Source: Synergistales bacterium
GTDB lineage: Bacteria; Synergistota; Synergistia; Synergistales; Aminobacteriaceae
Reading direction: 5' to 3'
DNA: 64,000 nt
NCBI GenBank assembly: GCA_036788195.1
Contig: DAIQNX010000007.1
Coordinates: 12,209-76,208, forward strand
Below the pieces are notes generated by a model. That model saw only the letters and a list, made by a program, of their open reading frames with translations, had not been told where the DNA came from and ran no database searches. The position numbers were made by a program, and so were the translations under genes. Positions within the stretch are counted from its first letter, which is position 1. Each line of letters begins with the position of its first letter. Positions 42,703 to 58,009 of this stretch are shown here, piece by piece.

Positions 42703-42813
42703 CGGGCACCTCTCCTCGGAGACTGCGTCAGAATGCGTTCATGTTTCCCCGGGTTTCCGGAATACCGTGTCGTATAATCGCCTGTCTGCGGACATACGAA
42801 CCCTGTCAGTTGT

Positions 42814-42822
42814 ATTCTATCA
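42814..42822 (-). promoter_or_regulatory. Candidate extended -10 promoter element for the hybrid kinase operon
   Basis: The minus strand reads TGATAGAAT (TG-n-TAGAAT), about 110 nt upstream of the ATG at 42702, in the 164-nt gap after the upstream operon. Confidence 0.3.
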
Positions 42823-42866
42823 GAATCTTCGCTCTCCCGCTCCGTTTTTCCCTCGTTTTGTCCGCG

Positions 42867-43811
42867 TCAGGCCGTGAGCCGGCCTCCTTCGACGACGACG
42901 CGGCCGTCGAGCCGCAGCGTCGGCTTGCGCATGACGCCGTCGATGTGAATTCCCGCGGCGACGGTTCCTCCGAACGTATCGTTGCTGCCGAGCGCGATGT
43001 GTACCGTCCCGTAGATCTTTTCATCCTCGAGAATCACGCCCGTGAAGCGTGCGCGGTCGTTCGTCCCGATGCCGAGCTCCGCGAGGTTGCGGGCCTTCGG
43101 ATTGTCCCCGAGCTGCGCGAGGATCGTGGAGCCTCCCCTTCCCTCGATGCCGGCGAGAAGCCCGTCCCGGAACGTCAGCAGCAGCGGTTCGTCGAGGACG
43201 CCGAGCCCGACGAACGATCCGTCGATGACCACGGAGCCGTTCGCACTCCCTTCGACCGGCGCGATGTACGCCTCTCCCGAAGGGAGGTTGCCCGATTCGC
43301 CCCTGTTGCGATAGACGCCCGTGCTCGGATGCCCTTCGCGCCCGGCGAGGGACATCGAGAGAGAGTGTCCGCCCGTTATGATCTCGGCCGTTCCGGCGTG
43401 GGAAAGCAACTCAGTGTAGCGTTTCGTCACCGCTTCGACGATCGTGTAGTCGGCCGTGATCGGACCGTTGAAGTACATATCCCCGGTGATTCGCGGCATC
43501 GTCGCCACGCGGGCTCCCGCTTCGCACGCGCGCTTTCGCGCCTGCGTATGCGTCAGCGAGGCCCCGGTCGGGGCCACAACGACGTCGGCGGCCTTCATCG
43601 CGGCCGAGACGATGTCGTCCGGCTCAGCGCCGTTCCGTTCGGGAACGGGAATCCGGATCGCAGCCGTCTTCGCACCCAGGGCGCATCCCGCGAGAAACAG
43701 ACTCTCGCCGATCTGCAATGTCGTCTCGTCGTAGACGACGACCAGCCGTTCGCCGGCGACAAGCCCCATATTGTCCTTCAGAAGCCGCTTCGACACATCG
43801 ACGAAATCCAT
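42867..43811 (-). CDS. M29-like (aminopeptidase T/S fold) metallohydrolase, short form
   Basis: Real part (314 aa, MDFVDVSKRLL...) of track ORF 42867..44672, with GAGGAGGGG upstream of the ATG at 43811. GEAYIAPVEGSANGSVVIDGS and ELGIGTN...EDEKIYGTVHIALG resemble the M29 metal-binding C-terminal half. Confidence 0.7.
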   Translation of the reverse strand: MDFVDVSKRLLKDNMGLVAGERLVVVYDETTLQIGESLFLAGCALGAKTAAIRIPVPERNGAEPDDIVSAAMKAADVVVAPTGASLTHTQARKRACEAGARVATMPRITGDMYFNGPITADYTIVEAVTKRYTELLSHAGTAEIITGGHSLSMSLAGREGHPSTGVYRNRGESGNLPSGEAYIAPVEGSANGSVVIDGSFVGLGVLDEPLLLTFRDGLLAGIEGRGGSTILAQLGDNPKARNLAELGIGTNDRARFTGVILEDEKIYGTVHIALGSNDTFGGTVAAGIHIDGVMRKPTLRLDGRVVVEGGRLTA

Positions 43812-43828
43812 ATTCCGAACGCCCCTCC

Positions 43829-44503
43829 TCATCCGATCAGTTCGCGAACGACGCGGGCGACGATGCCCCGCGCCAGGATCACGGGCCTGTCCGTCACTTC
43901 CCGGACCGCTTCCTGCATCGCAAGCGTATACCCCATGCAGTCCATGACCGTGAGATCGGCCCCCCATTCCTTCATCTCCGCCGCGGCCGCCCGAACGGCC
44001 CTTTCGGCATCCGCGTAGGGCGACGCCGGAACCACGCGAAGATCCGAGCAGACGCTCTTCCAGCGACGTCCGGATTGCGCGATCTGGTCGCGCGACGGCG
44101 TCAGGAACCCGACGCGCAATCCTTTCGCGACCGCCTCGACCGTATTGTACAGGATGCGTTGCGGACGCAGGAGCAGACCGTCGGTCGGGAAATCCGGGAA
44201 TTCTCCCGTGCAGAGCAGCAGAACGGTCGAAAGACCGTTGTCGAAATGCTCCGCGATCCTGGCTTCCACGCGGGGCGCGATATATTTTTCGGCGACCTGG
44301 ATCGACGAACCGTCCGCCAGGCGCGTGACGAGAACGTAGTCTCCGGTCTCGGGGGCGAGAGACGCGATCTCGTCCCGGGAGAGTCCGTCGAGCGCGCCGG
44401 CCTCGACGATGTCGATTCCGTCGCCGAGAATCGCGCGCAGATCGGGCGTCACGTCCGTTCGCGGCGACTGTCCGATCGTCACCGTTCCGAGAATCCGTTT
44501 CAT
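43829..44503 (-). CDS. aroM: AroM-family protein (function unknown)
   Basis: 224 aa, collinear with my recollection of E. coli AroM (TIGQSPRTDV.P, GLSRDEIASLAPE, GADLTVMDCMGY, PVILARGIVARVVRELI). The ATG forms an ATGA overlap with the upstream stop. Confidence 0.8.
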   Translation of the reverse strand: MKRILGTVTIGQSPRTDVTPDLRAILGDGIDIVEAGALDGLSRDEIASLAPETGDYVLVTRLADGSSIQVAEKYIAPRVEARIAEHFDNGLSTVLLLCTGEFPDFPTDGLLLRPQRILYNTVEAVAKGLRVGFLTPSRDQIAQSGRRWKSVCSDLRVVPASPYADAERAVRAAAAEMKEWGADLTVMDCMGYTLAMQEAVREVTDRPVILARGIVARVVRELIG

Positions 44504-45339
44504 CGGTCATTCTCCTTTCGAAGTTCGTCCCGATAACAGCACGCGAGATGATCCGCGCCGTTCGGTCCGCAGCGGAGGCACTCGTCGATGGAGCCGGCGA
44601 CGCCGCTCGTCTCCGCTCCCCTGACACTCTCGAGAACCATCCGGAACGTCTCGAACCATCGGTCGTCGCCATCGACGACGAACGTCGCTCCGCCTTCGGC
44701 TCCCGAGACGCCGCCGCGTCCGATTACCCACGCGTCGCGCGCCCCGAGCGCGCGCAACGCCTCGGGTTCGCTCACGATCCGCCCGAAGAGGGGCACGAGT
44801 CCCACCGCCATGCCCATGGACCACACCGGCGCCTTTCGGCCGCAGGCTTTCATCGCCTCCGGCACGGAAGTCGGGGAGATCTTCTCGACTCCCGCGGCGA
44901 TGATGCATCGCACCCCCTGCGACGGCAGGAGCGGCAGTATCCGTCCCGGCTCGCCGCCCATGAACCGCCCGGCCATCATCGCCGCGTTCCCGCAGGAGTC
45001 GACGATGTTGGCGCCGCAGACGACGACGTCGTCCGGGCCCATCTCGGCGGCGATCGCCTCAAGACGGCCATCTGCCGCTTCGGGACGCCCTCCGCGAAGC
45101 AACAGGGAGTGCGCCCCTTCGACGGTCCGGGCCGCCGCGACGGTCCCCCGGAGGGATATCCGTCCGGAAATCCGGAGCGGCGTCCCGGCCAGTTCTTCCG
45201 CGAGCGCCGAGACCGTCGTCCCGCCCTTGAGCAGGATCATCCCGTCCGCCAACGCGCGGCGCACTTCGGGAAGCGCGGCGATCCCCTTCGCGATCAGTTT
45301 TTTGCCTTCCGCGACGGTAAGGGAAAACTGCGCTTTCAT
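44500..45339 (-). CDS. Hypothetical protein, 279 aa, no family recognised; C-terminal Cys cluster
   Basis: Clean ORF with codon usage like its neighbours. The start lies 1 nt after the DUF1177 stop, and the stop overlaps the aroM start. Gly/Ala-rich Rossmann-like stretches (LLKGGTTV, VVVCGANIVD, IIAAGVEK) end with ECLRCGPNGADHLACC. Confidence 0.75.
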   Translation of the reverse strand: MKAQFSLTVAEGKKLIAKGIAALPEVRRALADGMILLKGGTTVSALAEELAGTPLRISGRISLRGTVAAARTVEGAHSLLLRGGRPEAADGRLEAIAAEMGPDDVVVCGANIVDSCGNAAMMAGRFMGGEPGRILPLLPSQGVRCIIAAGVEKISPTSVPEAMKACGRKAPVWSMGMAVGLVPLFGRIVSEPEALRALGARDAWVIGRGGVSGAEGGATFVVDGDDRWFETFRMVLESVRGAETSGVAGSIDECLRCGPNGADHLACCYRDELRKENDR

Positions 45340-45340
45340 C

Positions 45341-46276
45341 TCATACGTCGCCCATTCCCTGAAGGTGCGTCATCGGGCCGTAGAGTTCGACCATGCGGTC
45401 GTATTCGGTCGGATCGTAGAAAGACAGATTCCCTTCGCCGAAGGCCTTCGCGACCTCGATGACGAACCGGACGGCCGATTCGATATCGACCGGCTGCGAC
45501 GCACCCGTCGCGCATCCGGGAACCGCCGACTCCGCCGTAAGCGCGACGCCGACAACCGGAGCCGACGTCGCCGTGCACGGCTGCAGGATGCTGTTCAGAT
45601 GGTAGAGTCCGTTGCCGTACGGGGTGATGTCCTGCATCGACAGCGGGAAGACGACGGGGGCGCGCCCGGTCACGTACGACATGACGGAGAGCAGGTCCTC
45701 GCTGACGCGCATGATCCAGCCCTCCCTGACGGTCGGCGAGATGGCGAACCCGCGATGGTTGATGACCCGGTTGCCGCGCGTCGTATCCACGGAGAGGACC
45801 GCGTCGAGATTTCCGGACATCTCCTCCGCGTTCGCGATCGCCATGTTGATCGGAGAATCCATGAACGGGACGGGGTCGTGCGGGCGCGTCGGAGCGTTCG
45901 GACAGATGTGGGTCGATACGAAGACGTCACCTTTCAGGACGTCTCCGACGGCCGACATGCGGGCCAGCTTCATCGCCGTCGCCACGGCCGTGACGGCTCC
46001 GTCTGCGTCCGACACCAGGCCGGTCCGCTCGGGTCTCGCCCCGATGCCGCCCAGTCGTCCGACGATTCCGAGCGTCGGGGCTGTTCCCCCCGATATTCTG
46101 CCCGACGAACCGCGTACCCAGACCTTCACGAAGTCGGTGTTTCCTTTCGGTCCCGTGACGGTCCGCACGACGACGTCCGCCTCCCCCGCCTCCAGAATCG
46201 CCGCCCTGACGGATTCTCCCGTGACGACCGGAGAATCCAGAAGTTCCATGGCCTTCATGGTCCAGTAGAGAGACAT
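45341..46276 (-). CDS. DUF1177-like protein (function unknown)
   Basis: 311 aa with AAGGAG 7 nt upstream of the ATG. The assignment rests on my recollection of DUF1177 sequences and of their co-occurrence with DUF917/AroM/OPT genes. It needs an HMM check. Confidence 0.55.
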   Translation of the reverse strand: MSLYWTMKAMELLDSPVVTGESVRAAILEAGEADVVVRTVTGPKGNTDFVKVWVRGSSGRISGGTAPTLGIVGRLGGIGARPERTGLVSDADGAVTAVATAMKLARMSAVGDVLKGDVFVSTHICPNAPTRPHDPVPFMDSPINMAIANAEEMSGNLDAVLSVDTTRGNRVINHRGFAISPTVREGWIMRVSEDLLSVMSYVTGRAPVVFPLSMQDITPYGNGLYHLNSILQPCTATSAPVVGVALTAESAVPGCATGASQPVDIESAVRFVIEVAKAFGEGNLSFYDPTEYDRMVELYGPMTHLQGMGDV

Positions 46277-46279
46277 GAA

Positions 46280-47386
46280 TTAGCTCCTTTCCCGGGATCC
46301 CCCGCGCGCATCGAAGGACAGGTACGCGAGAACGGGCTCCCCGACTATGCCCTCGACGGGCTCGAACAATTCCCTGCACCGCATCCCCGCTCCGAGAAGC
46401 AGGTTTCCGGACGGCGCGGCCAGAACGACGACGCGCATGTCGCGCCGAAGCTCCGCGGTCGTCACTGGAACTCCCGTCCCCGCGTCGAGCGTCATGATGA
46501 GGTCGGGGAACGTGTACCGGCGTTTTCCTCCGACGTCGAGCGTCATGTATTCGTTCCAGAAGGTCGCGGACACTCCCCCTTCGACCTCGATCCGGCCGTG
46601 GTCGAACCCGCCTTCGGTCGCGAGGTCGTACCGCACGACCGCGCCTTCCGCAACGACCGTTCCGCCGAGGAGCGCAGCCGCGGCGGCCGCGACCGCTTCC
46701 CCGCCGAAACCGGCGTCGCGCATCGCGAATCCGACCTCGATCGCCCTCCGGACCCCGCCAGGCGCCGCGTGCCGTTTCGCGTACGACGCCGGTACCGGAT
46801 TTCGGGCCACGGACACAAGTCCGCCCGCACGTACGGAACTCTGTCGTACGAGCGCCGATACCGCCTCCATCGGTCCCCTGAAGATCGCCTCGAGGTACGT
46901 CCCCTTCTCAGGATCCCCACCCGCCGCGGCCTGCACCGAGCGATACGCGGCGTCGCGATGGAGCCCCATCGAGCCCATGAGCCCCGTCGGATGGGCGCGA
47001 CCGTTGCACGGGGCGTCAACTACCGGTCGCCCGGTCATCGCGGCGGGAACCCATCCGTTGCAGATCGCGCTGCCACCGCATTCGTTCGTGATGAGCCCGC
47101 CGACCGAGAGATCCTCGAAACGTTCGAGCATCGTCACGACGCGTCCCGCCGCCTCCGGCGAAGCGCAGGCGTCTCTCGCCGCCGGCGCCCCTACGGCCGA
47201 ACACGTCAGCAGCACGACTTCCGGATCGACATCGTCGATATCGACGAGGTTCACTCCCCCGAGGCGCACCGCCTCGACCGCGAGAAGGCGCCCCTTCTCC
47301 ATGGATCCGCCGCCGCCGCCGCCGAGCAGGCACCCTCCGAGAATCGCGGCATCGATTTCTTCCCGTGTCAGTTTCATACCCTTCAC
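46280..47386 (-). CDS. DUF917-family protein (hydantoinase-like two-domain fold; function unknown here)
   Basis: 368 aa. The N-terminal AAILGGCLLGGGGGGS glycine run and NECGGSA, followed by a second domain of similar size, match my recollection of DUF917. The track start is GTG at 47386; ATG at 47377 is an alternative. Confidence 0.65.
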   Translation of the reverse strand: MKGMKLTREEIDAAILGGCLLGGGGGGSMEKGRLLAVEAVRLGGVNLVDIDDVDPEVVLLTCSAVGAPAARDACASPEAAGRVVTMLERFEDLSVGGLITNECGGSAICNGWVPAAMTGRPVVDAPCNGRAHPTGLMGSMGLHRDAAYRSVQAAAGGDPEKGTYLEAIFRGPMEAVSALVRQSSVRAGGLVSVARNPVPASYAKRHAAPGGVRRAIEVGFAMRDAGFGGEAVAAAAAALLGGTVVAEGAVVRYDLATEGGFDHGRIEVEGGVSATFWNEYMTLDVGGKRRYTFPDLIMTLDAGTGVPVTTAELRRDMRVVVLAAPSGNLLLGAGMRCRELFEPVEGIVGEPVLAYLSFDARGGSRERS

Positions 47387-47405
47387 CCGCGTTTCGTTCT
47401 CTACG

Positions 47406-48059
47406 TCAGCAGAGTGCGGCGCGCATGGCCGCTCCCGCCGCGATCAGCGGATCGATGACGACAAGCCCCGTCTGCTCCCGAAGCACGGCCGCGATTCCGA
47501 TCGTCGCGAACCCCGTACACGCGAGCGCGAGCACCCGGGCGCCGCGATCCCTCATCAGGCGCGCCGAAGCGATCGTCCGTTCCCGTCCTCCGTGAGTCAT
47601 GAGGTCGAGCGTCGACGACACCCCATCCGGACGTCCGGACGCAACCAGCGCGTCGCCGAGAATCGCGCGCATCTCTTCCGGGACGTCCTCCATGATGCCG
47701 AGAACGCCCACCGCCGCCCCGAACGAACGGGCAAGATGCGCCGTCGCGATTCCCGCGCCGACGACCGGAACCGTGAGATCCCGCTGAAGCGTCCGTACGG
47801 CGGGATCTCCCGCACAGCTCACGAGAATCCCCCCGACCCCATCTCGTTCCATTTCGCGGGCAAGCGCGATCACTTTCGGAATCGCGAGGCGCTCCGTCCC
47901 GGAATCGTGGATCCCCTCGGGTTGGTCCGGAATGCAGCGGGACTCCACCCGAAGCCCCGGAAAGGTCCGTTCGAGGATGTCGCCGTGACGCCGGAGCAGC
48001 GACTCGTCGTCCGTGGTCAGGACCCGGATGAGGCCGACTTTCGCTTCGGTCACCACCAT
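47406..48059 (-). CDS. Asp/Glu/hydantoin racemase-family protein
   Basis: 217 aa. The two-Cys layout VSCAGDPAV ... LALACTGF is typical of cofactor-independent Asp/Glu/hydantoin racemases. The start overlaps the OPT gene end by 10 nt. Confidence 0.7.
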   Translation of the reverse strand: MVVTEAKVGLIRVLTTDDESLLRRHGDILERTFPGLRVESRCIPDQPEGIHDSGTERLAIPKVIALAREMERDGVGGILVSCAGDPAVRTLQRDLTVPVVGAGIATAHLARSFGAAVGVLGIMEDVPEEMRAILGDALVASGRPDGVSSTLDLMTHGGRERTIASARLMRDRGARVLALACTGFATIGIAAVLREQTGLVVIDPLIAAGAAMRAALC

Positions 48060-49684
48060 CCGAAACTCCTCCCGAGCGCGTTCACGAAGCCGTAGATTCC
48101 GTCTCCGGCAATGAACCCCGCGCCGTACAGCTCGAGGAGCTCCCCGTGATTCTTCTCGAACGCGAGTCTGATGGCGACGGCGACAAGAAGCCCTATCCCG
48201 TAGATCGGGTTGTTAATCAGGAGTCCCGTCGCGAAGAGCACGCCGAGCGCCTTTTTCGCGCCTCCCGCGAACTGGAGCGCCGCTCCGGCAACCGACCAGA
48301 CCAGAAGCTGGCGCAGGATCTCCGGGTGCGATCCCGCCTTGATCGTCGCCGCAAACACCTTGCTGACGGGCGGGATGAGATTCTGCCGGAAGTGCATGTC
48401 CATGAGAAGTCCGACGACGACCATCGCGATGACGCCGCCGATCAGCTCGGAGATCACCTGCTGGCGTCTGCCGTCGAGCTCGTATGCCGGGTTCGTTCCC
48501 CTGCCGCGGATGATCCATCCGGTCTTCAGGTCGTATCCCATATCCGCGAAGCACGGCCCGGTGCTGGCGACATACCCCGTCAGCAGCGCGAGCGCCGCGG
48601 GGGGGAACCCCATGAAGAGTCCGAGACTCAGGAAGATGATGCTGATCGCGAACCCGGGAAACCATCCCGAGTGCATCGCGCAGAGCCCGACGAGAATCGG
48701 GCTGACCAGCGCGGAAATCGTGCTCCAGGTCACCCAGAGCGACAGCGTCGAAGCCGACATCTCCGACCAGATGCCCGAGATGAGCGACAGGGCCACGGCG
48801 CCCGCGAGGAAGAGGACGAAGCCCATTCCGATGGCCTTCTTCGTGGCGTCTTTGCTCACACTGTACGTATCCTGCATTGTTTCCGCGGCGCCGTTTCCGG
48901 ATTTGCGCGTGATGATGACGATGGCCTGGATCAGCGAGACGACTCCGGCCCCGATCATGACGCCATGGGGGATATAGGTCTTCCCGAGATCGACTGGGAG
49001 CCCCGAAATTCCCAGACTTCCAAGAAACGCCGCGATCTGCGGGAAGTACCCGCGGACGAGGAGTCCAAGGGCCAGCGCGACCATCGCGAACGTATTCGCG
49101 ATGAAGGCGATGCCGACTCCCGCCATCGGCAGTCCGGCGGCGAGAAACGGCTTGATCTTGAGAGCCGCTCCCGCCGCTCCGAGCAGGATGCCTCCGAAGA
49201 GCAGCCGCCCCTTTCGTCCGCCTTCATCCCCCGCTATGAGCGCCTGCGCCGTCGCGACGCCGGGAGGCCATGAACCGCTCGCCGGGAACAGCTCGGAATC
49301 GTAGACGCGATACACGAAGTACATCCCGATCAGCGTCGCGATCCCCGATCCGACGAGCATCGGAATGAGCTGCTTCATGTCGCCGAAGGCGAACAGGATT
49401 CCGACCGCGAGGAGTCCGCAGTTCGCCGCCCCGAAACCGGCGGCGGATGTCATCGTCTGCACGAGATTCTGCCTGTCGAGACTCCGGAACTTTTCCATCG
49501 ACGCGAGCGGAATCCGCGCTATCGCCATCGCGAGCAGCGCCCCGATCACGGATGTGTTCGGGGTGATGCCGATCCTCGCGATGATCTGCATGCAGATCAC
49601 GGCCGACAGAACCGAAACGAAGACGCTGACCAGCAGCGTCTCCCTCTCGAGCGCCTTCACGTGTGGTTCGTGTGGATCCTTCAT
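48050..49684 (-). CDS. OPT-family oligopeptide transporter
   Basis: 544-aa polytopic membrane protein. N-terminus ...TLLVSVFVSVLSAVICMQIIARIGITPNTSVIGALLAMAI and the overall 14-16 TM pattern fit bacterial OPT-superfamily proteins. First gene of the operon. Confidence 0.8.
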   Translation of the reverse strand: MKDPHEPHVKALERETLLVSVFVSVLSAVICMQIIARIGITPNTSVIGALLAMAIARIPLASMEKFRSLDRQNLVQTMTSAAGFGAANCGLLAVGILFAFGDMKQLIPMLVGSGIATLIGMYFVYRVYDSELFPASGSWPPGVATAQALIAGDEGGRKGRLLFGGILLGAAGAALKIKPFLAAGLPMAGVGIAFIANTFAMVALALGLLVRGYFPQIAAFLGSLGISGLPVDLGKTYIPHGVMIGAGVVSLIQAIVIITRKSGNGAAETMQDTYSVSKDATKKAIGMGFVLFLAGAVALSLISGIWSEMSASTLSLWVTWSTISALVSPILVGLCAMHSGWFPGFAISIIFLSLGLFMGFPPAALALLTGYVASTGPCFADMGYDLKTGWIIRGRGTNPAYELDGRRQQVISELIGGVIAMVVVGLLMDMHFRQNLIPPVSKVFAATIKAGSHPEILRQLLVWSVAGAALQFAGGAKKALGVLFATGLLINNPIYGIGLLVAVAIRLAFEKNHGELLELYGAGFIAGDGIYGFVNALGRSFGWW

Positions 49685-49909
49685 GTGACCGCCCCCCTCA
49701 ATTCGTCGTCAGAAAACGAACGGAACCGGAAAACACGCGCAACCGTAACGATCGTATCGCTCTCTCCTCTCTCCCGACCCGGGCACAGTGTACTATTTCC
49801 ACTCGTCGGACGATATCGGCCATGTCGTATTTTCTGACATGACGAGGTCCGGAACAATGGTCCGTGGACACGAAAGTCCCCGAACTTCTCTGTGCGGGAG
49901 GCACACTCC

Positions 49910-50854
49910 TCAGGTGCGGCCTGAGTGCAGGTGACAGGAGACCTCCCGTCCGCCCGCCAGAACGCGGGGAGGCGGAGTTTCGCAAACATCGGACGCATCC
50001 GGACACCGTGTCCGGAAGGCGCAGCCTCCCGGCGGGTCGAGCGGACTCGGAATCTCTCCCCGGACGGGGTCGGATGTCATTCTCCGTCCCGGATCGGGAA
50101 CGGCGCTCAGTAACGCCCTCGTGTACGGGTGAAGCGGAGAGTCGACGATATCCGAGACAGTTCCGCTTTCCACGATCCGCCCGAGGTACATGACCGCGAC
50201 GCGGTCGGAGAAGCAGCTGACGATCTTGAGGTCGTGCGTGATGAGCAGGTATGTCAGGGTCCGCGTTCCGCGGATTTCCATAAGGAGGTTGAGAATCTGC
50301 GCCTGCACCGAGACGTCGAGTGCGGACGTCGGCTCGTCCAGCAGGAGCAGTTGCGGTTCGAGGATCAGGGATCGCGCGATCGCGACGCGCTGCTTCTGTC
50401 CGCCAGACAGTTCGTGCGGATACTTCGGAAGCAGATCCCTTCCGAGGCCGACGAGATCGAGCATCGCGGAAACCCGACCGGAGCGTTCGCGCGCGTTCCC
50501 CATTCCGCGGATCAGGAGTCCCTCCTCTATCTGGAACCTGATAGTCTTCCTCGGATCGAGCGATGATTCGGGGTCCTGAAAGACCATCTGGACGCACGCG
50601 CGCCTCCTGTCCGACTCCTTCAGCGGTTCGCCGGAGAGCAGAATCTCGCCCGACGTCGGCCGATGAACGCCGGCGACGAGATTGGCGACGGTCGACTTCC
50701 CCGATCCGCTCTCGCCGACGATACTGAACACGCTTCCGCGCGGAACCGAAAACGACACGGAACGTACGGCGTGAAGTTCGAGCGTCGGACGTCCGAACAG
50801 GTTTTTCCGGACCGGAAACGTCTTTCCCACGTTGCGCACTTCGAGGATGTCCAT
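49910..50854 (-). CDS. Oligopeptide/dipeptide ABC transporter ATP-binding protein (OppF/DppF type)
   Basis: Real part (314 aa, MDILEVRNVGKTF...) of track ORF 49910..51037. Walker A GESGSGKST, signature LSGGQKQRVAIARS, Walker B LLLLDEPTSALD and the C-terminal oligopeptide-type extension (HPYTRALL, GGCAFRTRCP) are present. Confidence 0.9.
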   Translation of the reverse strand: MDILEVRNVGKTFPVRKNLFGRPTLELHAVRSVSFSVPRGSVFSIVGESGSGKSTVANLVAGVHRPTSGEILLSGEPLKESDRRRACVQMVFQDPESSLDPRKTIRFQIEEGLLIRGMGNARERSGRVSAMLDLVGLGRDLLPKYPHELSGGQKQRVAIARSLILEPQLLLLDEPTSALDVSVQAQILNLLMEIRGTRTLTYLLITHDLKIVSCFSDRVAVMYLGRIVESGTVSDIVDSPLHPYTRALLSAVPDPGRRMTSDPVRGEIPSPLDPPGGCAFRTRCPDASDVCETPPPRVLAGGREVSCHLHSGRT

Positions 50855-50859
50855 GGGTT

Positions 50860-51834
50860 TCACGCCCCTTCTCCACGGTATTTCCAGCACCAGACGACGC
50901 GGCCGCCGAAATCGCGGGGGGGCGGCGGCTGAGTCCGGCACACGTCCATGACCGCGTCGCACCTGGGATGGAACCGACACCCCGGCGGAGGGGAGAGCGG
51001 ACTCGGGACGGTGCCCCGGATCGCCGCGAGCGGACATCCCCTCCGTTCCGCCCCGAGCGTCGGAATCGACCGGAGCAGACCGACGGTGTACGGATGGAGG
51101 GGATTCGCGAAGATGTCCGCGACCGGCGCGATCTCCATGACCCTCCCCGCGTACATCACCATGATCCGCTGCGCTATCTGCGACACGACCCCGAGGTCGT
51201 GCGTGATGAAGATGAGCGCCGTGTTCGACACCCGCTGCAACTCCCGGAAGAGATGAAGGATCTGCGCCTGGCTGATCACGTCGAGCGCCGTCGTCGGTTC
51301 GTCGGCGACCAGCAGCGCCGGTTCGCAGAGCATCGCCATTGCGATCATGACGCGCTGCCGCATTCCGCCGCTGAATTCGAACGGATACCGCTCCAGCATC
51401 CGCTCGGGGTCGGGAATCGCGAGGCGCTCCATCATTCCGACGACCCGGTCCCTGGCGGACGGGCCCGGCATTCCCAGATGCTCCTCCAGTACCTCGCCGA
51501 GCTGCCTGCCGATACGGATGGACGGGTTCAACGAGTTGAGGGGGTTCTGGAAGACCATCGACACGTCGCGGCCGCGGAACGCGGCCAGCGACGCGCAGGG
51601 CTGTCCCCTGAACGTCAGGTTTCCTTCCCTCCGGACCGATGGAGCCGAAACGAGATCCATGATCGAGAGGACCGTGACGCTCTTACCCGAACCGCTCTCC
51701 CCGACGATGCCGAGGGACTCCCCCCTTTCGACCGAGAAGGAGACGTCTTCGCACGCCGTCAGGATCCCTTCCGGAAGGCGGAAGCGGACCGAAAGCGAGC
51801 TGACGGAGAGCAGCGGAACGGAACGGTCCGTCAA
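50860..51834 (-). CDS. Oligopeptide/dipeptide ABC transporter ATP-binding protein (OppD/DppD type)
   Basis: TTG at 51834 forms a TTGA overlap with the M20 stop, with AGGAG 9 nt upstream. GESGSGKS, FSGGMRQRVMIAMA, LLVADEPTTALD, HPYTVGLL and GCRFHPRC are present. Confidence 0.88.
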   Translation of the reverse strand: MTDRSVPLLSVSSLSVRFRLPEGILTACEDVSFSVERGESLGIVGESGSGKSVTVLSIMDLVSAPSVRREGNLTFRGQPCASLAAFRGRDVSMVFQNPLNSLNPSIRIGRQLGEVLEEHLGMPGPSARDRVVGMMERLAIPDPERMLERYPFEFSGGMRQRVMIAMAMLCEPALLVADEPTTALDVISQAQILHLFRELQRVSNTALIFITHDLGVVSQIAQRIMVMYAGRVMEIAPVADIFANPLHPYTVGLLRSIPTLGAERRGCPLAAIRGTVPSPLSPPPGCRFHPRCDAVMDVCRTQPPPPRDFGGRVVWCWKYRGEGA

Positions 51835-53003
51835 AAATCCCGTCTCCTCTCGCGGAAGTACCGCGTCGCTTCGCGCATCAGATCTTCGTCGGCGAAGAGA
51901 TCGCACGCCGTCAGCGCGAGAGCCTTGACGGCCCGGAGCATCGCGCCGTAGCCGTATTCGGAATCGGAACACGCGGCGAACTCGGGCGTATGCGTCGGGA
52001 TCTTCTCTCCGGCCGTGATGTCGATATACCCCTGCGTTCCGGCGACGACCTGCGTCACCGCCCCGACGTCCGTGGATCCGACTCCGTCCCCGTAGATCCG
52101 CGGAGACACCTTCTCGCCGACGAGTTCGTAGTTCCTGTCGATCGTCCGCGCGATCGGGACGTTAACGTACACCTCGGGCTGCGCGTCCCGGAGCGTCAGC
52201 GAAACGCGGCAGCCCGTCATTTTCGCGGCGCCCTCCGCGATGTCGCGCAGTCGGACCTCCATCGCGTCGACTTCCTCCATGGTCAGCGCCCGGAGGCCGA
52301 TCTCCGCCTTCGTATAGTCGGGGATCGTGTTGAACGACTGTCCTCCGTCGAGGATGATGCCGTGGACGCGCGTCCGCTCCTTCATCTGCTGGCGCATGAG
52401 ACCGATGCCATTGAAGAGAGAGATCATGGCGTCGAGCGCGTTGACGCCCTTGTAGGGGCCGGCGGCCGCGTGCGCCGAGTGGCCGAAGAATTCGACGTAG
52501 AAGACCTTGATTGCGTACGAGATGTCGAACCCCGTGCTGAGCGTCGTCGGATGGATGATCATCGCCGCGTCCACGTCGCGGAAAACGCCTTTTTCGACGA
52601 GATGGATCTTGCCGCCGCCGTGCTCTTCGGCGGGGCAGCCCACGAACAGGATCGTCCCCCGGCCCGGCGAGGGGATTCCACAGCTCCTGAGCGCGACGGC
52701 GGCTCCGGCTCCGATCGTTCCGATCATATTGTGGCCGCACGCGTGACCGACGCCCGGCAGGGCGTCGTACTCGCCGAGAAGCGCGATCCTCGGCGTTCCG
52801 GAACCGGACCGGGCGACGAACGCGGTCTCGAGTCCGCCCGCGTTCCACTCGACGTCGAATCCGTTTTTCCCGAGGAACTCGGCCAGCTCGCGCGACGAAC
52901 GACGTTCCTGCCACGAAAGCTCATTGTATTCAAAAATCCGCTTCGCGATTCCGACAAGCTCATCCGAAAGAGCGTCGACACGGGATATGATTCGCTGCTT
53001 CAC
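51831..53003 (-). CDS. M20-family amidohydrolase (AbgB / aminoacylase / carbamoylase-like) embedded in the ABC operon
   Basis: Real part (390 aa, VKQRIISRVDALSDELV...) of track ORF 51831..53564, with a GTG start at 53003 after AAGGAG. LLGEYDALPGVGHACGHN and PAEEHGGGK are metal-ligand motifs of the M20D-type amidohydrolases. Confidence 0.85.
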   Translation of the reverse strand: MKQRIISRVDALSDELVGIAKRIFEYNELSWQERRSSRELAEFLGKNGFDVEWNAGGLETAFVARSGSGTPRIALLGEYDALPGVGHACGHNMIGTIGAGAAVALRSCGIPSPGRGTILFVGCPAEEHGGGKIHLVEKGVFRDVDAAMIIHPTTLSTGFDISYAIKVFYVEFFGHSAHAAAGPYKGVNALDAMISLFNGIGLMRQQMKERTRVHGIILDGGQSFNTIPDYTKAEIGLRALTMEEVDAMEVRLRDIAEGAAKMTGCRVSLTLRDAQPEVYVNVPIARTIDRNYELVGEKVSPRIYGDGVGSTDVGAVTQVVAGTQGYIDITAGEKIPTHTPEFAACSDSEYGYGAMLRAVKALALTACDLFADEDLMREATRYFRERRRDF

Positions 53004-53035
53004 CGCATACACATCTCCTTTTCTTTCCGCGCCCC

Positions 53036-53872
53036 TCACGAACGCATGCGCGGGTCGAGGACGTCCCTGAGGCCGTCGCCCAGAAGGTTGAATCCGAGAC
53101 ACGTCACGAGAATCGCGACGCCCGGGAATATCGCGAGGAGTGGCGCCTTGTCGATGAAGGGCATCGCTTCGCTCAGCATACTCCCCCACGAAGGCGTCGG
53201 CGGCTGGATGCCGAGTCCGAGGAAGCTCAGCGTCGCTTCGCTGATCACGGCGCCCGCGAAGCTCAGCGAGGCGTAGATGATCACGGTCGGCATGATGTTG
53301 ACGATCAGGTGTCGCGAGATGACCCACCATCCCGACGCGCCGAGAACACGCGAGGCGGTGACGAAGTCCTCGTTTCTGAGGCCGAGAACGGAACTCCGGA
53401 CGACACGCGCGAAGCTCGGCACCATGACGAGTCCGATCGCTATCATCGCGTTGAAGAGACCGGCGCCGAGCGTCGCCATCATCGCGATCGCGAGGAGAAT
53501 GTAGGGAAACGAAAGAAGCGCGTCCATGAGACGCATGAACAGGGCGTCGGGGAAACCGCCGCAATATCCCACGACGACGCCGATGGTCGTCCCCACGAAC
53601 GCTCCGATGCCGACCGCGATGACGCCGACGAGAAGAGAGACGCGGGCCCCCCAGACGAGCCGCGTGAAAACGTCGCGCCCGAAATCGTCCGTTCCGAGGG
53701 GATGTCCGCCGACGCCCGGCGACGCGAGCGTATTCGCGAAGTCCATATCCTCGAACCCGAACGGCGAGATCGCGGGAGCGCCGAACGCGAGCGCGACGTT
53801 CAGCAGAACGATGCAGAGTCCCATGACTCCCTGCTTGCTCCTGAAAAAACGTTTCAGAAACGTCCCGGACAT
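53036..53872 (-). CDS. Peptide ABC transporter permease (DppC/OppC type)
   Basis: 278 aa. HPLGTDDFGRDVFTRL and the binding-protein-dependent permease core are present. The start lies 1 nt after the upstream stop. Confidence 0.9.
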   Translation of the reverse strand: MSGTFLKRFFRSKQGVMGLCIVLLNVALAFGAPAISPFGFEDMDFANTLASPGVGGHPLGTDDFGRDVFTRLVWGARVSLLVGVIAVGIGAFVGTTIGVVVGYCGGFPDALFMRLMDALLSFPYILLAIAMMATLGAGLFNAMIAIGLVMVPSFARVVRSSVLGLRNEDFVTASRVLGASGWWVISRHLIVNIMPTVIIYASLSFAGAVISEATLSFLGLGIQPPTPSWGSMLSEAMPFIDKAPLLAIFPGVAILVTCLGFNLLGDGLRDVLDPRMRS

Positions 53873-53873
53873 C

Positions 53874-54830
53874 TCACGCGCCTCCGTACGATTTTCGGAT
53901 TTTCGGGTTCAGGAAGGCGTAGATCACATCGACGGCGAGGTTCACGAAGATATACAGGACCGCGATGAACAGGACCTCTCCCTGGACGAGAAGGTAGTCG
54001 CGGCGCATGATCGCGTCGACCATCAGCTTCCCGAGCCCCGGAAGGGCGAAGACCGACTCCGTGAGCACCGCTCCGGCGAGAAGGTGCCCGAGCTGGAGTC
54101 CGACGACCGTCACGACCGGGACGAGCGCGTTCCGAAGCGCATGTCGCCCGAGAACGAGCCGATCTCTGAGTCCCTTCGAACGGGCCGTCCGGATGTAATC
54201 CTGACGCATGACCTCGAGCATGCTCGAACGCGTGAAGCGGGTGATGATCCCCATGGACTGGAATGCGAGCGCGAAGGAAGGAAGGATGAGATGGCTCGCG
54301 ACGTCCCATGCCCCCTTCTCCCAGCTTCCGAGACCGACCGAGGGAAGCCAGCCGAGAGTGAGGACGAAAAACACGATGAGCATCATTCCCACCCAGAAGA
54401 TCGGCACCGATACCCCGGTGAGCGCGAATGTCGTTATGAGAAGATCGCTGAAACGATTGTGGCGGAGAGAAGCCCATATTCCGAGGGGCACGCCTGACAG
54501 CACCGCGAGAGAAAGCGCGCAGACGCTGAGCGTCATCGTCACGGGAAGCCGTTCGAAAATCAAGGAAAGGACATCCTGCCTGTAAATCAGCGAACGGCCG
54601 AGATCGCCCCTGAAGACACCCGAGACATAGGACGCGAACTGCGCGGGCAGAGACCGGTCGAGACCGAGTTCGACACGGAAGCGCGCGACATCTTCGGGAC
54701 TCGCCTCGGGACCGAGAAGCACGAGAGCGGGATCACCCGGTATCATCTTCATGAGAAGAAAGATGACGAGCAGAACGAAAAACAGAGTCGGAACAATCTG
54801 GATGCAACGTCTGAGAATGAATCGTCCCAC
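53874..54830 (-). CDS. Peptide ABC transporter permease (DppB/OppB type)
   Basis: GTG at 54830 lies 7 nt after AAGGAGG and gives VGRFILRRCIQIVPTLFFV..., the canonical DppB N-terminus. The track ORF begins 13 codons upstream at 54869. Confidence 0.9.
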   Translation of the reverse strand: MGRFILRRCIQIVPTLFFVLLVIFLLMKMIPGDPALVLLGPEASPEDVARFRVELGLDRSLPAQFASYVSGVFRGDLGRSLIYRQDVLSLIFERLPVTMTLSVCALSLAVLSGVPLGIWASLRHNRFSDLLITTFALTGVSVPIFWVGMMLIVFFVLTLGWLPSVGLGSWEKGAWDVASHLILPSFALAFQSMGIITRFTRSSMLEVMRQDYIRTARSKGLRDRLVLGRHALRNALVPVVTVVGLQLGHLLAGAVLTESVFALPGLGKLMVDAIMRRDYLLVQGEVLFIAVLYIFVNLAVDVIYAFLNPKIRKSYGGA

Positions 54831-54918
54831 TCCGGCGCCTCCTTGCTCTGAATCCGGAATTCCTTCCATCCTGCGCGGGAAACGCCGTCTCAGCCGCGAA
54901 AAACGGAACGGAATCGGT

Positions 54919-54982
54919 GATATCCGCTCCGGGACCCCGGGAAGGGGGAGAGGCAGGTTCCCAGGTTTCCGGAGCGGATATC
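54919..54982 (-). repeat. Intercistronic 14-bp perfect inverted repeat between the binding-protein and permease genes
   Basis: GATATCCGCTCCGG (54919-54932) and CCGGAGCGGATATC (54969-54982) with a 36-nt loop. A third partial copy, GGAGCGGATCTC, lies at 54995-55006. Confidence 0.6.
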
Positions 54983-55028
54983 GCGGCGGGACGCGGAGCG
55001 GATCTCCCCCCCGCCGGTGGTACGACGA

Positions 55029-56588: not shown

Positions 56589-56684
56589 ACGTGTCACCTC
56601 CAGTGGATTTGTCGCAATTCCCGGCTTTCTTCCGACGCACCGGTCGCGCAGCGCCGATTCGCCTCAACAATACATATTTTATTT

Positions 56685-56714
56685 ATTATGAAACAAATGT
56701 TGCGAAATGCGCAA
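56685..56714 (-). promoter_or_regulatory. Candidate promoter/operator of the peptide-ABC operon
   Basis: On the minus strand: TTGCGC, about 18 nt, CATAAT (56690-56685). The -35 region is part of the palindrome TTGCG-N5-CGCAA (56700-56714). It lies in the AT-rich stretch between the PucR-like gene and the operon. Confidence 0.35.
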
Positions 56715-56769
56715 TGTGTCGCGGAGACGAAAGAACTTCCACGCATTTATGCACTCCGCACGAGAACAT

Positions 56770-57909: not shown

Positions 57910-58009
57910 GCCCCTTCCTCCTTCCCTGTATCCTCACGGAAGATCGGCTTCCGGTACAAGGGTACCCCATCGGGAGGCCCGACGCAACGCTCCCGATGGA
58001 ACCGCCCCG

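What the first reader, a model, noticed from the sequence alone, without database searches (positions are those of the whole stretch)
42867..49684. Seven-gene OPT / hydantoin-racemase / DUF917 / DUF1177 / orphan / AroM / M29 operon: candidate undescribed pathway for a small peptide-like or cyclic-amide substrate
Seen: seven co-directional genes packed at spacings of -10, +19, +3, +1, -4 (ATGA) and +17 nt, so almost certainly one transcript. A 225-nt leader precedes them and 164 nt of non-coding DNA follow. At least four products have no established biochemistry here (DUF917, DUF1177, the 279-aa orphan, AroM). The recognisable parts form a consistent theme. There is an importer for small peptides (OPT) and two proteins related to cofactor-independent racemases (Asp/Glu/hydantoin racemase with a two-Cys layout, and AroM). 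There is a DUF917 protein; as far as I recall, the only characterised relatives act on (thio)hydantoin-type rings. There is also an M29-fold metallohydrolase. Inference: the logic resembles hydantoin utilisation (racemase + ring-opening enzyme + amidase), yet none of the canonical hydantoinase, dihydropyrimidinase or HyuA/B enzymes is present. This may therefore be a non-canonical route for hydantoin-like, cyclic dipeptide or D-residue-containing peptide salvage.
Basis: partly seen in the sequence, partly recalled or inferred. Interest (0 to 1): 0.78.

Follow-up and report, generated by a model that had tools for sequence, protein, structure and literature searches.

The report
Conserved uncharacterised peptide-derivative breakdown operon
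Seven tightly packed genes in a Synergistaceae genome (a peptide importer, two racemase-like enzymes, three hydrolase-like enzymes and a partner protein with no family assignment) recur together across many bacterial and archaeal lineages, have no known biochemistry, and most likely break down small peptide-derived ring compounds such as cyclic dipeptides.

Summary
Seven minus-strand genes lie at 42867-49684 with exactly the stated spacings, and all six family calls pass Pfam's thresholds. The set is not a chance arrangement. In 42 other species genomes with full flanks, the DUF1177 gene has AroM within 6 kb in 32, M29 in 21, OPT in 18, DUF917 in 17 and the racemase in 16, nearly always on the same strand. 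These span Synergistota, Bacillota, Spirochaetota, Actinomycetota, Thermococci and Bathyarchaeia.

New findings:
- The "orphan" belongs to a conserved family (1027 representatives) with no Pfam model, and it occurs naturally fused to AroM.
- DUF1177 is predicted to have an M17/M28 aminopeptidase-like fold.
- Both racemase-like proteins keep two invariant cysteines.
- The short M29-like protein keeps the peptidase-type metal ligands.
- The operon sits behind a PucR regulator, a Dpp-type ABC importer and an M20 amidohydrolase on the same strand.
- Cyclodipeptide-oxidase gene pairs flank the cluster in 4 of 80 related loci.

No biochemistry exists for this cluster. One 2024 paper notes part of the co-occurrence in passing. 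The best reading is stereo-converging catabolism of imported cyclic dipeptides or related ring amides. The substrate is inferred, not shown.

The parts
56770..57909 (-). PucR-family transcriptional regulator. It is the candidate regulator of the whole locus.
   Evidence: Pfam PucR, GGDEF_2 and HTH_30. PucR-family regulators adjoin the cluster in 16 of the 80 related loci (12 long-form and 4 short-form) and in L081, L084 and L085.
55029..56597 (-). Family-5 solute-binding protein of a Dpp/Opp/Gsi-type ABC importer.
   Evidence: Pfam SBP_bac_5, 264 bits. The best NCBIfam hits are GsiB and DppA, both below cut-off. Family-5 binding proteins recur in 18 related loci.
53874..54869 (-). ABC permease (DppB/OppB type).
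   Evidence: Pfam BPD_transp_1; NCBIfam.
53036..53872 (-). ABC permease (DppC/OppC type).
   Evidence: Pfam BPD_transp_1 and OppC_N.
51831..53012 (-). M20 amidohydrolase (N-acyl-amino-acid amidohydrolase / carboxypeptidase subfamily) embedded in the ABC operon.
   Evidence: Pfam Peptidase_M20 and M20_dimer. NCBIfam TIGR01891 scores 210 bits against a cut-off of 154. The GTG start at 53012 follows an AAAGGAG ribosome-binding site.
50860..51972 (-). ABC ATPase (OppD/DppD type). The listed ORF overlaps the M20 gene, so the true start probably lies further in.
   Evidence: Pfam ABC_tran and oligo_HPY.
49910..51037 (-). ABC ATPase (DppF/OppF type). The true start probably lies further in than the listed ORF.
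   Evidence: Pfam ABC_tran and oligo_HPY.
49685..49909 (-). 225-nt leader before OPT, with a GAGGGGGG ribosome-binding site.
   Evidence: Sequence. There is no Rfam match and no promoter or terminator signal above background.
48050..49684 (-). OPT-family membrane transporter (544 aa), the presumed importer.
   Evidence: Pfam OPT, 72 bits. An OPT gene lies within 6 kb of DUF1177 in 18 of 42 genomes.
47406..48059 (-). Asp/Glu/hydantoin-racemase-family protein (217 aa) with two catalytic cysteines, C82 and C181.
   Evidence: Pfam Asp_Glu_race. PDB 2eq5 from Pyrococcus horikoshii matches at E 3.5e-67. C82 and C181 are invariant in 30 homologues.
46280..47386 (-). DUF917 / S-Me-THD-family protein (368 aa).
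   Evidence: Pfam S-Me-THD_N and S-Me-THD_C. NCBIfam thiohydantoin desulfurase scores 258 bits, below the 440 cut-off. The only PDB relative is the hypothetical protein 2o3i, E 2e-27.
45341..46276 (-). DUF1177 protein (311 aa), the signature and most conserved member. It is predicted to have an M17/M28 exopeptidase-like fold.
   Evidence: Pfam DUF1177, 440 bits. At least 7985 homologues were found, including one 66% identical in Pyrococcus horikoshii. The AF2 model has pLDDT 79.8. Foldseek matches M17 and M28 aminopeptidases at E ~1e-8 and TM ~0.5.
44500..45339 (-). Conserved protein with no Pfam model (279 aa), here read as an AroM partner. It has a Rossmann-like core and a C-terminal Cys/His tail, C254-x2-C257-x6-H264-x2-C267.
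   Evidence: It has at least 488 homologues and 1027 representatives at 50% identity. The AF2 model has pLDDT 93.7, with only weak fold matches. Natural fusions to AroM exist: P0247 and P0264.
43829..44503 (-). AroM-family protein (224 aa), racemase-like, with two invariant cysteines, C98 and C189.
   Evidence: Pfam AroM, 263 bits. NCBIfam PRK10481 scores 233 bits against a cut-off of 198. C98 and C189 are invariant in 56 homologues. An AroM gene lies within 6 kb of DUF1177 in 32 of 42 genomes.
42867..43811 (-). Short (314 aa) M29-fold metallohydrolase with the aminopeptidase-type ligand set E180, E245, H271, H289 and D291.
   Evidence: Pfam Peptidase_M29, 35 bits. A profile matches PDB NicX 7cn3 at 5e-17 and PepS, AmpT and AmpS more weakly. 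Ligand conservation is shown.
42703..42866 (-). 164-nt spacer that separates the operon from the next minus-strand gene, a hybrid histidine kinase.
   Evidence: Coordinates; Pfam of the kinase.

Best explanation
This is a catabolic (nutrient-salvage) operon for small, imported, peptide-derived compounds that carry a racemisable alpha-carbon. The most likely substrates are 2,5-diketopiperazines (cyclic dipeptides) or closely related cyclic amides or ureides.

Proposed steps, all inferred:
1. The compound enters through the OPT transporter, and in this genome probably also through the upstream Dpp-type ABC system.
2. The two-cysteine hydantoin-racemase-like enzyme interconverts ring stereoisomers, so that every isomer reaches the form the hydrolase accepts.
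3. The DUF917 enzyme carries out the hydrolytic step on the ring.
4. AroM is a second two-cysteine epimerase. It works together with the 279-aa partner protein and acts on the opened product.
5. DUF1177 (M17/M28-like fold), the short M29-type metallohydrolase and the upstream M20 amidohydrolase cleave the remaining amide bonds to free amino acids for fermentation.
6. A PucR-family regulator controls the locus.

Shown here: the gene set, its conservation, the catalytic-residue patterns, the DUF1177 fold and the orphan-AroM fusion. Inferred: the substrate, the order of steps and the direction (breakdown rather than synthesis).
For: - Operon-like packing of the seven genes.
- Same-strand co-occurrence of the partners with DUF1177 across bacterial phyla and archaea. 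All seven genes are together in Thermoanaerobacterium thermosaccharolyticum.
- The minimal recurring core is OPT plus DUF1177 plus AroM, i.e. importer, peptidase-like protein and epimerase-like protein.
- C82/C181 in the racemase and C98/C189 in AroM are invariant.
- The M29-like protein keeps the Glu/Glu/His/His/Asp ligand set.
- DUF1177 has an aminopeptidase-like fold.
- Orphan::AroM fusions occur inside the same cluster type.
- Recurrent neighbours are PucR regulators, Dpp-type ABC importers and M20 peptidases. Other peptidases (C15, M28, S9-like) are adjacent in single loci.
- CDOA plus CDOB (DUF6092) pairs lie next to the cluster in 4 of 80 loci. All characterised CDOs act on cyclic dipeptides, and non-CDPS CDO clusters are reported as enriched in hydantoin racemase, DUF917, AroM, OPT and peptidases.
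- OpaE shows that this racemase family can epimerise a residue in derivatives of a nonribosomal anthranilyl tripeptide with a fused pyrimidinone ring (abstracts of PMC12661438 and PMC7530659).
- The hosts are largely peptide or amino-acid fermenters such as Synergistaceae, Thermococci and Clostridia (the physiology is from general knowledge).
- No ligase, NRPS or cyclodipeptide synthase is present in the locus.
Against: - No experiment bears on any of these proteins.
- The only named relatives of DUF917 are thiohydantoin desulfurases, which exchange sulfur at C2 of a hydantoin ring rather than open a ring. This protein scores far below their cut-off.
- CDO pairs are absent from this window and from most related loci.
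- Some related loci carry NCS1 permeases, HyuA-like proteins or a carbon-nitrogen hydrolase. These fit hydantoin or ureide substrates better.
- The 80 loci were chosen by similarity to this DUF1177, so the co-occurrence frequencies are not an unbiased sample.
- DUF1177 shows fold-level similarity only. No sequence match to a peptidase and no mapped metal site was obtained.
Confidence: 0.5

Rival explanations
1. The operon salvages linear peptides that contain D-amino acids, for example cell-wall stem peptides or racemised or damaged peptides. OPT imports the peptide, the two racemase-like enzymes epimerise residues within peptides or free amino acids, and DUF1177, M29 and M20 act as the peptidases. 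DUF917 would have an accessory role.
For: - The recurring core is OPT plus DUF1177 (peptidase-like fold) plus AroM (two Cys).
- Peptidase genes are frequent neighbours.
- Dpp-type ABC importers recur.
Against: - It gives no role to the tightly linked racemase-DUF917 pair, whose family relatives act on five-membered ring ureides.
- It does not explain the CDO association.
- Known peptide epimerases belong to other folds, such as the enolase superfamily (general knowledge).
Confidence: 0.2
2. The operon is a non-canonical route for 5-substituted hydantoins, N-carbamoyl amino acids or other ureides (allantoin-like compounds). The racemase is a true hydantoin or allantoin racemase, DUF917 replaces the hydantoinase, and DUF1177, M29 or M20 replaces the carbamoylase.
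For: - The racemase belongs to the hydantoin/allantoin racemase family.
- DUF917's named relatives act on thiohydantoins.
- PucR-type regulators are classically linked to purine and ureide catabolism (the link is general knowledge).
- NCS1 permeases, HyuA-like proteins and a carbon-nitrogen hydrolase occur in some related loci.
Against: - The importers here are peptide-type (OPT and Dpp-like) rather than NCS1.
- Two aminopeptidase-like enzymes and a second epimerase are more than a hydantoin route needs.
- There is no urease, ureidoglycolate or carbamate-handling gene in the locus.
Confidence: 0.15
3. The cluster makes or tailors a small peptide-derived secondary metabolite or metallophore, and OPT acts as exporter or re-importer.
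For: - The 2024 CDO paper raises biosynthesis of peptide-based metabolites as one possibility.
- OPT and Dpp/Nik-type systems can carry metal chelates (NCBIfam shows weak CntA-like hits).
Against: - No bond-forming enzyme (NRPS, CDPS, ATP-grasp or ligase) is present in this locus.
- The enzymes are hydrolase-like or racemase-like.
- The locus is linked to catabolic-type regulators and peptidases.
- The distribution in fermenters and hyperthermophiles fits nutrient use better.
Confidence: 0.05
4. The seven genes are adjacent by chance and are not a functional unit.
For: None beyond the absence of transcript data.
Against: - Two junctions are overlapping and the other four are gaps of 1 to 19 nt.
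- The partners are conserved on the same strand in dozens of species from different phyla and domains.
- Two members are fused in some genomes.
Confidence: 0.01

Closest known systems
Bacterial hydantoin-utilisation (hyu) clusters: hydantoin racemase HyuE, hydantoinase, N-carbamoyl-amino-acid amidohydrolase and NCS1 permease
   Same: The logic is the same: an importer, a cofactor-independent two-cysteine racemase that funnels both enantiomers, and amidohydrolases that release an amino acid. The racemase belongs to the same Pfam family.
   Different: There is no dihydropyrimidinase-type or HyuA/HyuB hydantoinase and no NCS1 permease. The importers are peptide-type. The cluster has extra members with no counterpart in hyu systems: DUF1177, AroM, its partner protein and the M29-like enzyme.
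Non-CDPS cyclodipeptide-oxidase (CDO) gene clusters described in Nat Commun 2024;15:3574 (PMC11055893)
   Same: The accompanying genes are the same: hydantoin racemase, DUF917, AroM, OPT or ABC peptide transporters, and peptidases. CDOA/CDOB pairs directly flank the cluster in L020, L035, L040 and L042.
   Different: This window has no CDO genes, and most DUF1177 clusters lack them. The paper's text and searchable supplements do not mention DUF1177, the partner protein or M29, and it reports no biochemistry for these genes.
Thiohydantoin and S-methyl-thiohydantoin desulfurases (NCBIfam NF058529 and NF058532; Pfam S-Me-THD)
   Same: The window's DUF917 protein is a full-length homologue (E 1e-76) with both Pfam domains.
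   Different: It scores 258 bits against a cut-off of 440, so it is not an equivalog. It sits with peptide importers and peptidase-like genes, and no other gene of ergothioneine catabolism is recognisable in the locus.
OpaE, a fungal Asp/Glu-racemase-family epimerase (PDB 9qbx; J Biol Chem 2025, PMC12661438)
   Same: It belongs to the same racemase superfamily and epimerises a D-aminoacyl residue in derivatives of a nonribosomal anthranilyl tripeptide that carry a fused pyrimidinone ring (abstracts of PMC12661438 and PMC7530659). This shows the family is not restricted to free amino acids or hydantoins.
   Different: The relationship is distant (E 4.6e-5). OpaE is fungal and biosynthetic.
M29 aminopeptidases (AmpS, AmpT, PepS) and the M29-fold dioxygenase NicX
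   Same: The fold is the same, and the five metal-ligand positions of the aminopeptidases are conserved. The overall short architecture is closest to NicX (profile E 5e-17).
   Different: The protein is about 90 residues shorter than the aminopeptidases. Unlike NicX, it keeps the two glutamate ligands. The hosts are largely anaerobes, which makes a dioxygenase role unlikely (inference).

Membership tests
Canonical hydantoin-utilisation (hyu) system | Two-cysteine hydantoin racemase | tested here: met
   Pfam Asp_Glu_race scores 73 bits. C82 and C181 align with the catalytic cysteines of 2eq5 and 3qvj and are invariant. Substrate specificity was not tested.
Canonical hydantoin-utilisation (hyu) system | Hydantoinase (dihydropyrimidinase-type amidohydrolase or HyuA/HyuB) | tested here: not met
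   None of the 14 genes of the locus has such a domain. There is no HyuA-like match anywhere in the window.
Canonical hydantoin-utilisation (hyu) system | N-carbamoyl-amino-acid amidohydrolase (M20 or carbon-nitrogen hydrolase type) | tested here: inconclusive
   An M20 amidohydrolase of subfamily TIGR01891 lies upstream. That subfamily covers many acyl-amino-acid hydrolases. There is no carbon-nitrogen hydrolase in the window.
Canonical hydantoin-utilisation (hyu) system | NCS1-type hydantoin permease | tested here: not met
   No NCS1 homologue occurs in the window. The importers are OPT and a Dpp-type ABC system.
Thiohydantoin desulfurase (NCBIfam NF058529 equivalog) | Whole-protein score at or above the curated cut-off | tested here: not met
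   The score is 258 bits against a cut-off of 440. For S-methyl thiohydantoin desulfurase it is 238 against 450.
DUF917 / S-Me-THD superfamily (Pfam PF06032 plus PF20906) | Both domains above the gathering score | tested here: met
   The scores are 70.6 and 90.6 bits against cut-offs of 27.
AroM family (PF07302; NCBIfam PRK10481) | Full-length match above the cut-offs | tested here: met
   Pfam scores 263 bits over profile positions 1-219 of 219. NCBIfam scores 233 bits against a cut-off of 198.
Cofactor-independent two-thiol racemases (mechanistic class) | Two conserved catalytic cysteines, one in each half of the fold, in AroM | tested here: met
   C98 (LLCTG) and C189 (DCMG) are invariant in 56 homologues. 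Catalysis itself cannot be tested with these tools.
M29 aminopeptidases | Glu/Glu/His/His/Asp ligand set of the two-metal site | tested here: met
   E180, E245, H271, H289 and D291 are conserved in at least 90% of 33 homologues. E180, E245 and H289/D291 align with PepS, and H289/D291 align with NicX. Reading these positions as the metal ligands, and H271 as the fifth, rests on my recollection of the AmpS structure.
M29 aminopeptidases | Full-length (~400-aa) architecture matched by the Pfam model | tested here: not met
   The protein has 314 aa, and only residues 173-276 match positions 241-348 of the 406-position profile. Its best solved relative is the short NicX.
NicX-type 2,5-dihydroxypyridine dioxygenase | NicX residues at the two acidic ligand positions (no Glu at the first, His at the second) | tested here: not met
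   In the alignment, the window protein's E180 and E245 face a non-acidic residue and a His in NicX. The protein therefore has the peptidase pattern, not the NicX pattern.
OPT transporters (PF03169) | Pfam match above the gathering score | tested here: met
   The score is 72 bits against 25.8. Transport direction and substrate cannot be tested here.
Zn-dependent exopeptidases (M17/M28-like fold), for DUF1177 | Fold similarity | tested here: met
   Foldseek against the PDB gives 170 hits at E <= 1e-3. The best are M17 leucyl aminopeptidases and the S. griseus M28 aminopeptidase, at E ~1e-8 and TMq 0.5-0.55. The model has pLDDT 79.8.
Zn-dependent exopeptidases (M17/M28-like fold), for DUF1177 | Recognisable metal-ligand motif or sequence homology | tested here: inconclusive
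   There is no sequence-level match to any solved structure. Conserved Asp/His/Glu/Cys residues exist (D90, D92, H123, C125, H133, E152, D164, D216, H226), but they could not be superposed on a known site.
Non-CDPS cyclodipeptide-oxidase clusters | CDOA (nitroreductase) plus CDOB (DUF6092) gene pair | tested here: not met
   The window has no homologue of the CDOA or CDOB queries. The pair is present beside the cluster in L020, L035, L040 and L042.

The most novel reading that the evidence does not exclude
This would be the first genetically defined pathway for catabolism of 2,5-diketopiperazines (cyclic dipeptides). The hydantoin-racemase-like enzyme would act as a diketopiperazine epimerase and DUF917 as the long-sought ring-opening cyclic-dipeptide hydrolase. 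An AroM-partner complex would be a new kind of two-thiol peptide epimerase. DUF1177 would be a new metallopeptidase family, conserved at 54-69% identity from bacteria to archaea. Four families of unknown function would gain a role at once.
Probability: 0.27. Interest if true: 0.85.

Novelty: new variant of a known kind. Interest (0 to 1): 0.66.

Why it matters
Cyclic dipeptides form spontaneously from peptides, especially on heating, and many organisms make them as signals and antibiotics. A 2013 survey concluded that little was known about their degradation and that peptidases do not cleave them (PMC3852281). My searches found no later gene assignment.

This cluster is widespread: at least 7985 DUF1177 sequence clusters. 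It occurs in gut, sediment, digester and hydrothermal lineages, and it contains three families without any assigned function (DUF1177, AroM and the partner protein), plus a DUF917 subfamily that falls outside the characterised desulfurases.

Even if the substrate turns out to be different, solving one carrier would annotate thousands of genes. It would define what AroM does, which has been open since the E. coli aroL-aroM operon was sequenced in 1986. It would probably also yield new stereo-inverting and ring-opening biocatalysts.

Tried and rejected
- Riboswitch or leader RNA: Rfam at E <= 1 over 42000-58500 gave only noise.
- Promoter and terminator consensus scans found no more sites than shuffled sequence.
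- Shared operator between the OPT leader and the ABC-operon leader: a 22-nt similarity (CTTTCGTsTCCrCGgACaCATTG, preceded by GAAGTTC in both) was reached by 7 of 500 shuffles. It is suggestive only.
- Sequence searches of DUF1177 (single sequence and profile), AroM (single sequence) and the partner protein (profile) against the PDB gave nothing meaningful.
- Fold search of the partner protein gave only weak matches (E >= 2e-3, TM ~0.3) to MTR-1-P isomerase, eIF2B and CoA-transferase-type Rossmann domains. No function is assigned from them.
- The shorter, tail-less relatives of the partner protein lie on a very short contig or in an unrelated context and told me nothing.
- Literature searches for DUF1177, DUF917, the Pfam and InterPro accession numbers, AroM family and thiohydantoin desulfurase found no functional study. 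The other DUF917 mentions concern a different context (permease, DUF917 and hydantoinase A).
- A dioxygenase (NicX-like) role for the M29-like protein was rejected on the ligand pattern and the anaerobic hosts.
- Horizontal-transfer composition signal: GC is 0.63-0.68 across the operon against 0.60-0.68 across the window, so there is no anomaly.

Full report
**Observation.** The window is GC-rich (about 64%). It comes from an uncultured Synergistaceae bacterium: locus L001, from a Synergistaceae MAG, encodes a DUF1177 protein 98% identical to the window's. Seven minus-strand ORFs lie at 48050-49684, 47406-48059, 46280-47386, 45341-46276, 44500-45339, 43829-44503 and 42867-43811. Their junctions are -10, +19, +3, +1, -4 and +17 nt.

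Pfam confirms the six family calls:
- OPT
- Asp_Glu_race
- S-Me-THD_N plus S-Me-THD_C (the former DUF917)
- DUF1177 (440 bits)
- AroM (263 bits)
- Peptidase_M29, a partial match (35 bits against a cut-off of 27)

The 279-aa protein matches nothing in Pfam or NCBIfam.

**Surroundings.** The genes directly upstream lie on the same strand:
- a PucR-family regulator (56770-57909)
- a family-5 solute-binding protein
- two permeases
- an M20 amidohydrolase of subfamily TIGR01891 (51831-53012)
- two Opp/Dpp-type ATPases

Beyond these lie unrelated genes: a HAD hydrolase and a sugar-type ABC system on one side, and a hybrid histidine kinase on the other. The seven genes are therefore the distal half of a 14-gene locus of about 15 kb. 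The leader has no Rfam match and no promoter or terminator signal above background.

**Conservation.** A scan of one genome per species with the DUF1177 protein returned 80 loci. I mapped the seven window proteins onto them with tblastn. Among the 42 loci with at least 6 kb on both sides, excluding the same organism, the partners lie within 6 kb of DUF1177 as follows:

| Partner | Loci (of 42) |
|---|---|
| AroM | 32 |
| M29-like | 21 |
| OPT | 18 |
| DUF917 | 17 |
| racemase | 16 |
| 279-aa protein | 4 |

Nearly all of these are on the same strand as DUF1177. Eleven loci have the five main partners and four have all six. The carriers include Synergistota, Bacillota (Paenibacillus, Brevibacillus, Lachnospiraceae, Oscillospiraceae), Spirochaetota, Actinomycetota, Acidobacteriota, Thermococci and Bathyarchaeia.

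Gene order varies but two modules persist. One is DUF1177-AroM, often preceded by OPT. The other is racemase-DUF917, often with M29. All seven genes occur together, in a different order, in Thermoanaerobacterium thermosaccharolyticum.

An unbiased clustering of all ORFs in the 80 loci found these further recurrent neighbours: Dpp-type ABC components, PucR and IclR regulators, M20 peptidases, and less often NCS1 permeases, HyuA-like proteins and a carbon-nitrogen hydrolase.

One caveat applies. The loci were chosen as the closest DUF1177 relatives, so these frequencies describe that neighbourhood of the family and not the whole family.

**The individual proteins.**
- *Racemase.* It is 3.5e-67 from the solved Pyrococcus horikoshii "hydantoin racemase" 2eq5. 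It keeps both catalytic cysteines (C82 and C181), which are invariant in 30 homologues.
- *AroM.* It has two invariant cysteines in the equivalent LLCTG and DCMG motifs (C98 and C189; 56 homologues). It is therefore also a plausible two-thiol epimerase.
- *DUF917.* It is a full-length homologue of the NCBIfam thiohydantoin desulfurases but scores far below their cut-offs (258 against 440). Its only solved relative is the hypothetical protein 2o3i.
- *M29-like protein.* It is short (314 aa) and its best solved relative is NicX (profile E 5e-17). It conserves E180, E245, H271, H289 and D291, which I read as the aminopeptidase ligand set; NicX lacks the two glutamates. Reading these five positions as the metal ligands rests on my recollection of the AmpS structure.
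- *DUF1177.* It has at least 7985 homologous sequence clusters, including one 66% identical in P. horikoshii. It is the most conserved member of the set. Median identity to the window protein outside Synergistaceae is 60%, against 40-49% for five other members and 51% (three loci only) for the 279-aa protein. That comparison is biased by how the loci were chosen. Its AlphaFold model (pLDDT 79.8) matches M17 and M28 aminopeptidases at E about 1e-8 and TM about 0.5. No sequence-level relationship to any solved protein was found.

**The "orphan".** This protein is not an orphan. It has at least 488 close homologues and 1027 representatives at 50% identity, none with an informative source name or Pfam domain. 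The model is confident (pLDDT 93.7). It resembles solved structures only weakly, through MTR-1-P isomerase, eIF2B and CoA-transferase-type Rossmann domains. Invariant residues include K13, K38, S44, E48, R60, H77, D104, N111, D114, E152, K153 and E191, plus a C-terminal C254/H264/C267 motif that looks like a metal site.

Two representatives (504 and 502 aa) are natural fusions of this domain to AroM, in the same order as the overlapping genes in the window. One of them stands for seven distinct sequences from separate assemblies, so it is not a sequencing artefact. Both fusions sit in racemase/DUF917-DUF1177-[fusion]-OPT clusters with a PucR-family regulator adjacent. I read the protein as a partner or subunit of AroM.

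**Literature.** The library holds no functional study of DUF1177, AroM or this DUF917 subfamily. The one relevant paper is Nat Commun 2024;15:3574. It reports that 88% of cyclodipeptide-oxidase (CDO) clusters lack a cyclodipeptide synthase, and that these clusters are enriched in hydantoin racemases, DUF917, AroM, OPT and ABC peptide transporters, and peptidases. It gives no biochemistry for these genes, and neither its text nor its searchable supplements mention DUF1177.

I confirmed the link from the other side. CDOA (nitroreductase) plus CDOB (DUF6092) pairs lie next to the cluster in a Thermococci MAG, a Bacillota MAG, Laedolimicola and an Oscillospiraceae genome. The window itself has none.

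Two further papers bear on the interpretation. OpaE, a fungal member of the same racemase family, epimerises a D-aminoacyl residue in derivatives of a nonribosomal anthranilyl tripeptide with a fused pyrimidinone ring (abstracts of PMC12661438 and PMC7530659). A 2013 survey found that some bacteria degrade diketopiperazines and that the tested peptidases do not; no genes were assigned.

**Interpretation.** The locus holds importers, two two-thiol racemase-like enzymes, a ring-acting DUF917, and three metallohydrolase-like proteins. It lacks any bond-forming enzyme, it has a catabolic-type regulator, and its hosts are largely peptide fermenters. Together these point to catabolism of a small peptide-derived compound whose stereocentres must be equilibrated.

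The CDO link and the peptide-type importers favour cyclic dipeptides. The NCS1, HyuA and carbon-nitrogen-hydrolase neighbours in a minority of loci keep hydantoin-like ureides in play. The OPT-DUF1177-AroM core keeps D-residue linear peptides in play. The locus is not a canonical hyu system, because it has neither a hydantoinase nor an NCS1 permease.

**Verdict.** I rate it a new variant of a known kind (a transport, racemase and amidohydrolase catabolic operon) built largely from families of unknown function. Interest is 0.66.

Noticed in passing
window 49910-57909 (-): A PucR-family regulator, a Dpp/Opp-type ABC importer and an embedded M20 amidohydrolase lie directly upstream on the same strand. 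The seven-gene operon is probably half of a larger locus. In related Synergistaceae (L002, L006) a PucR-type regulator sits immediately before OPT, without the ABC genes.
   Followed up: partly
window 49685-49909 and 56598-56769: The leaders of OPT and of the ABC binding-protein gene share GAAGTTC followed by CTTTCGTsTCCrCGgACaCATTG. This could be a common operator, but 7 of 500 shuffles score as well.
   Followed up: partly
window 37882-42702 (-) and 35648-36754 (-): A very large hybrid histidine kinase (1606 aa) has three periplasmic SBP_bac_3 domains, two receiver domains and an Hpt domain. A response regulator with an HD-GYP-type domain follows it. Any relation to the operon is unknown.
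   Followed up: no
window 45341-46276 (-), DUF1177: The four lowest-confidence loops of the AlphaFold model (residues 77-88, 133-139, 218-226 and 253-257) are the most invariant sequence motifs of the family: GGxGARP, PHDPVPF, DITPYGN..H and PGCxTG. They may become ordered only with metal, substrate or an oligomer.
   Followed up: no
L020 4133-16083 (Thermococci MAG): This locus carries a second racemase-DUF917-racemase-M29 module beside an ABC importer. After OPT it also has a further racemase-family gene and a CDOA/CDOB pair, so it holds up to four racemase-like genes.
   Followed up: partly
L081 2095-16808 (Thermoanaerobacterium thermosaccharolyticum): All seven genes are present, with an IS element inserted between the PucR regulator and the racemase. 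Downstream lie a family-5 binding protein, pyroglutamyl peptidase (C15) and DUF969/DUF979 membrane proteins. This hints at a link to N-terminally cyclised peptides.
   Followed up: no
P0294, P0344, P0382; L087: The partner-protein family also has tail-less members of about 250 aa in unrelated genomic contexts, and one member fused to an N-terminal helix-turn-helix domain.
   Followed up: partly
L018, L051, L046, L066, L080: In some Bacillota, DUF1177 lies near a second, distant DUF917 type (about 27% identity) paired with HyuA-like proteins and NCS1 permeases. The same permease/DUF917/hydantoinase-A trio appears in papers on C. difficile and L. rhamnosus.
   Followed up: partly
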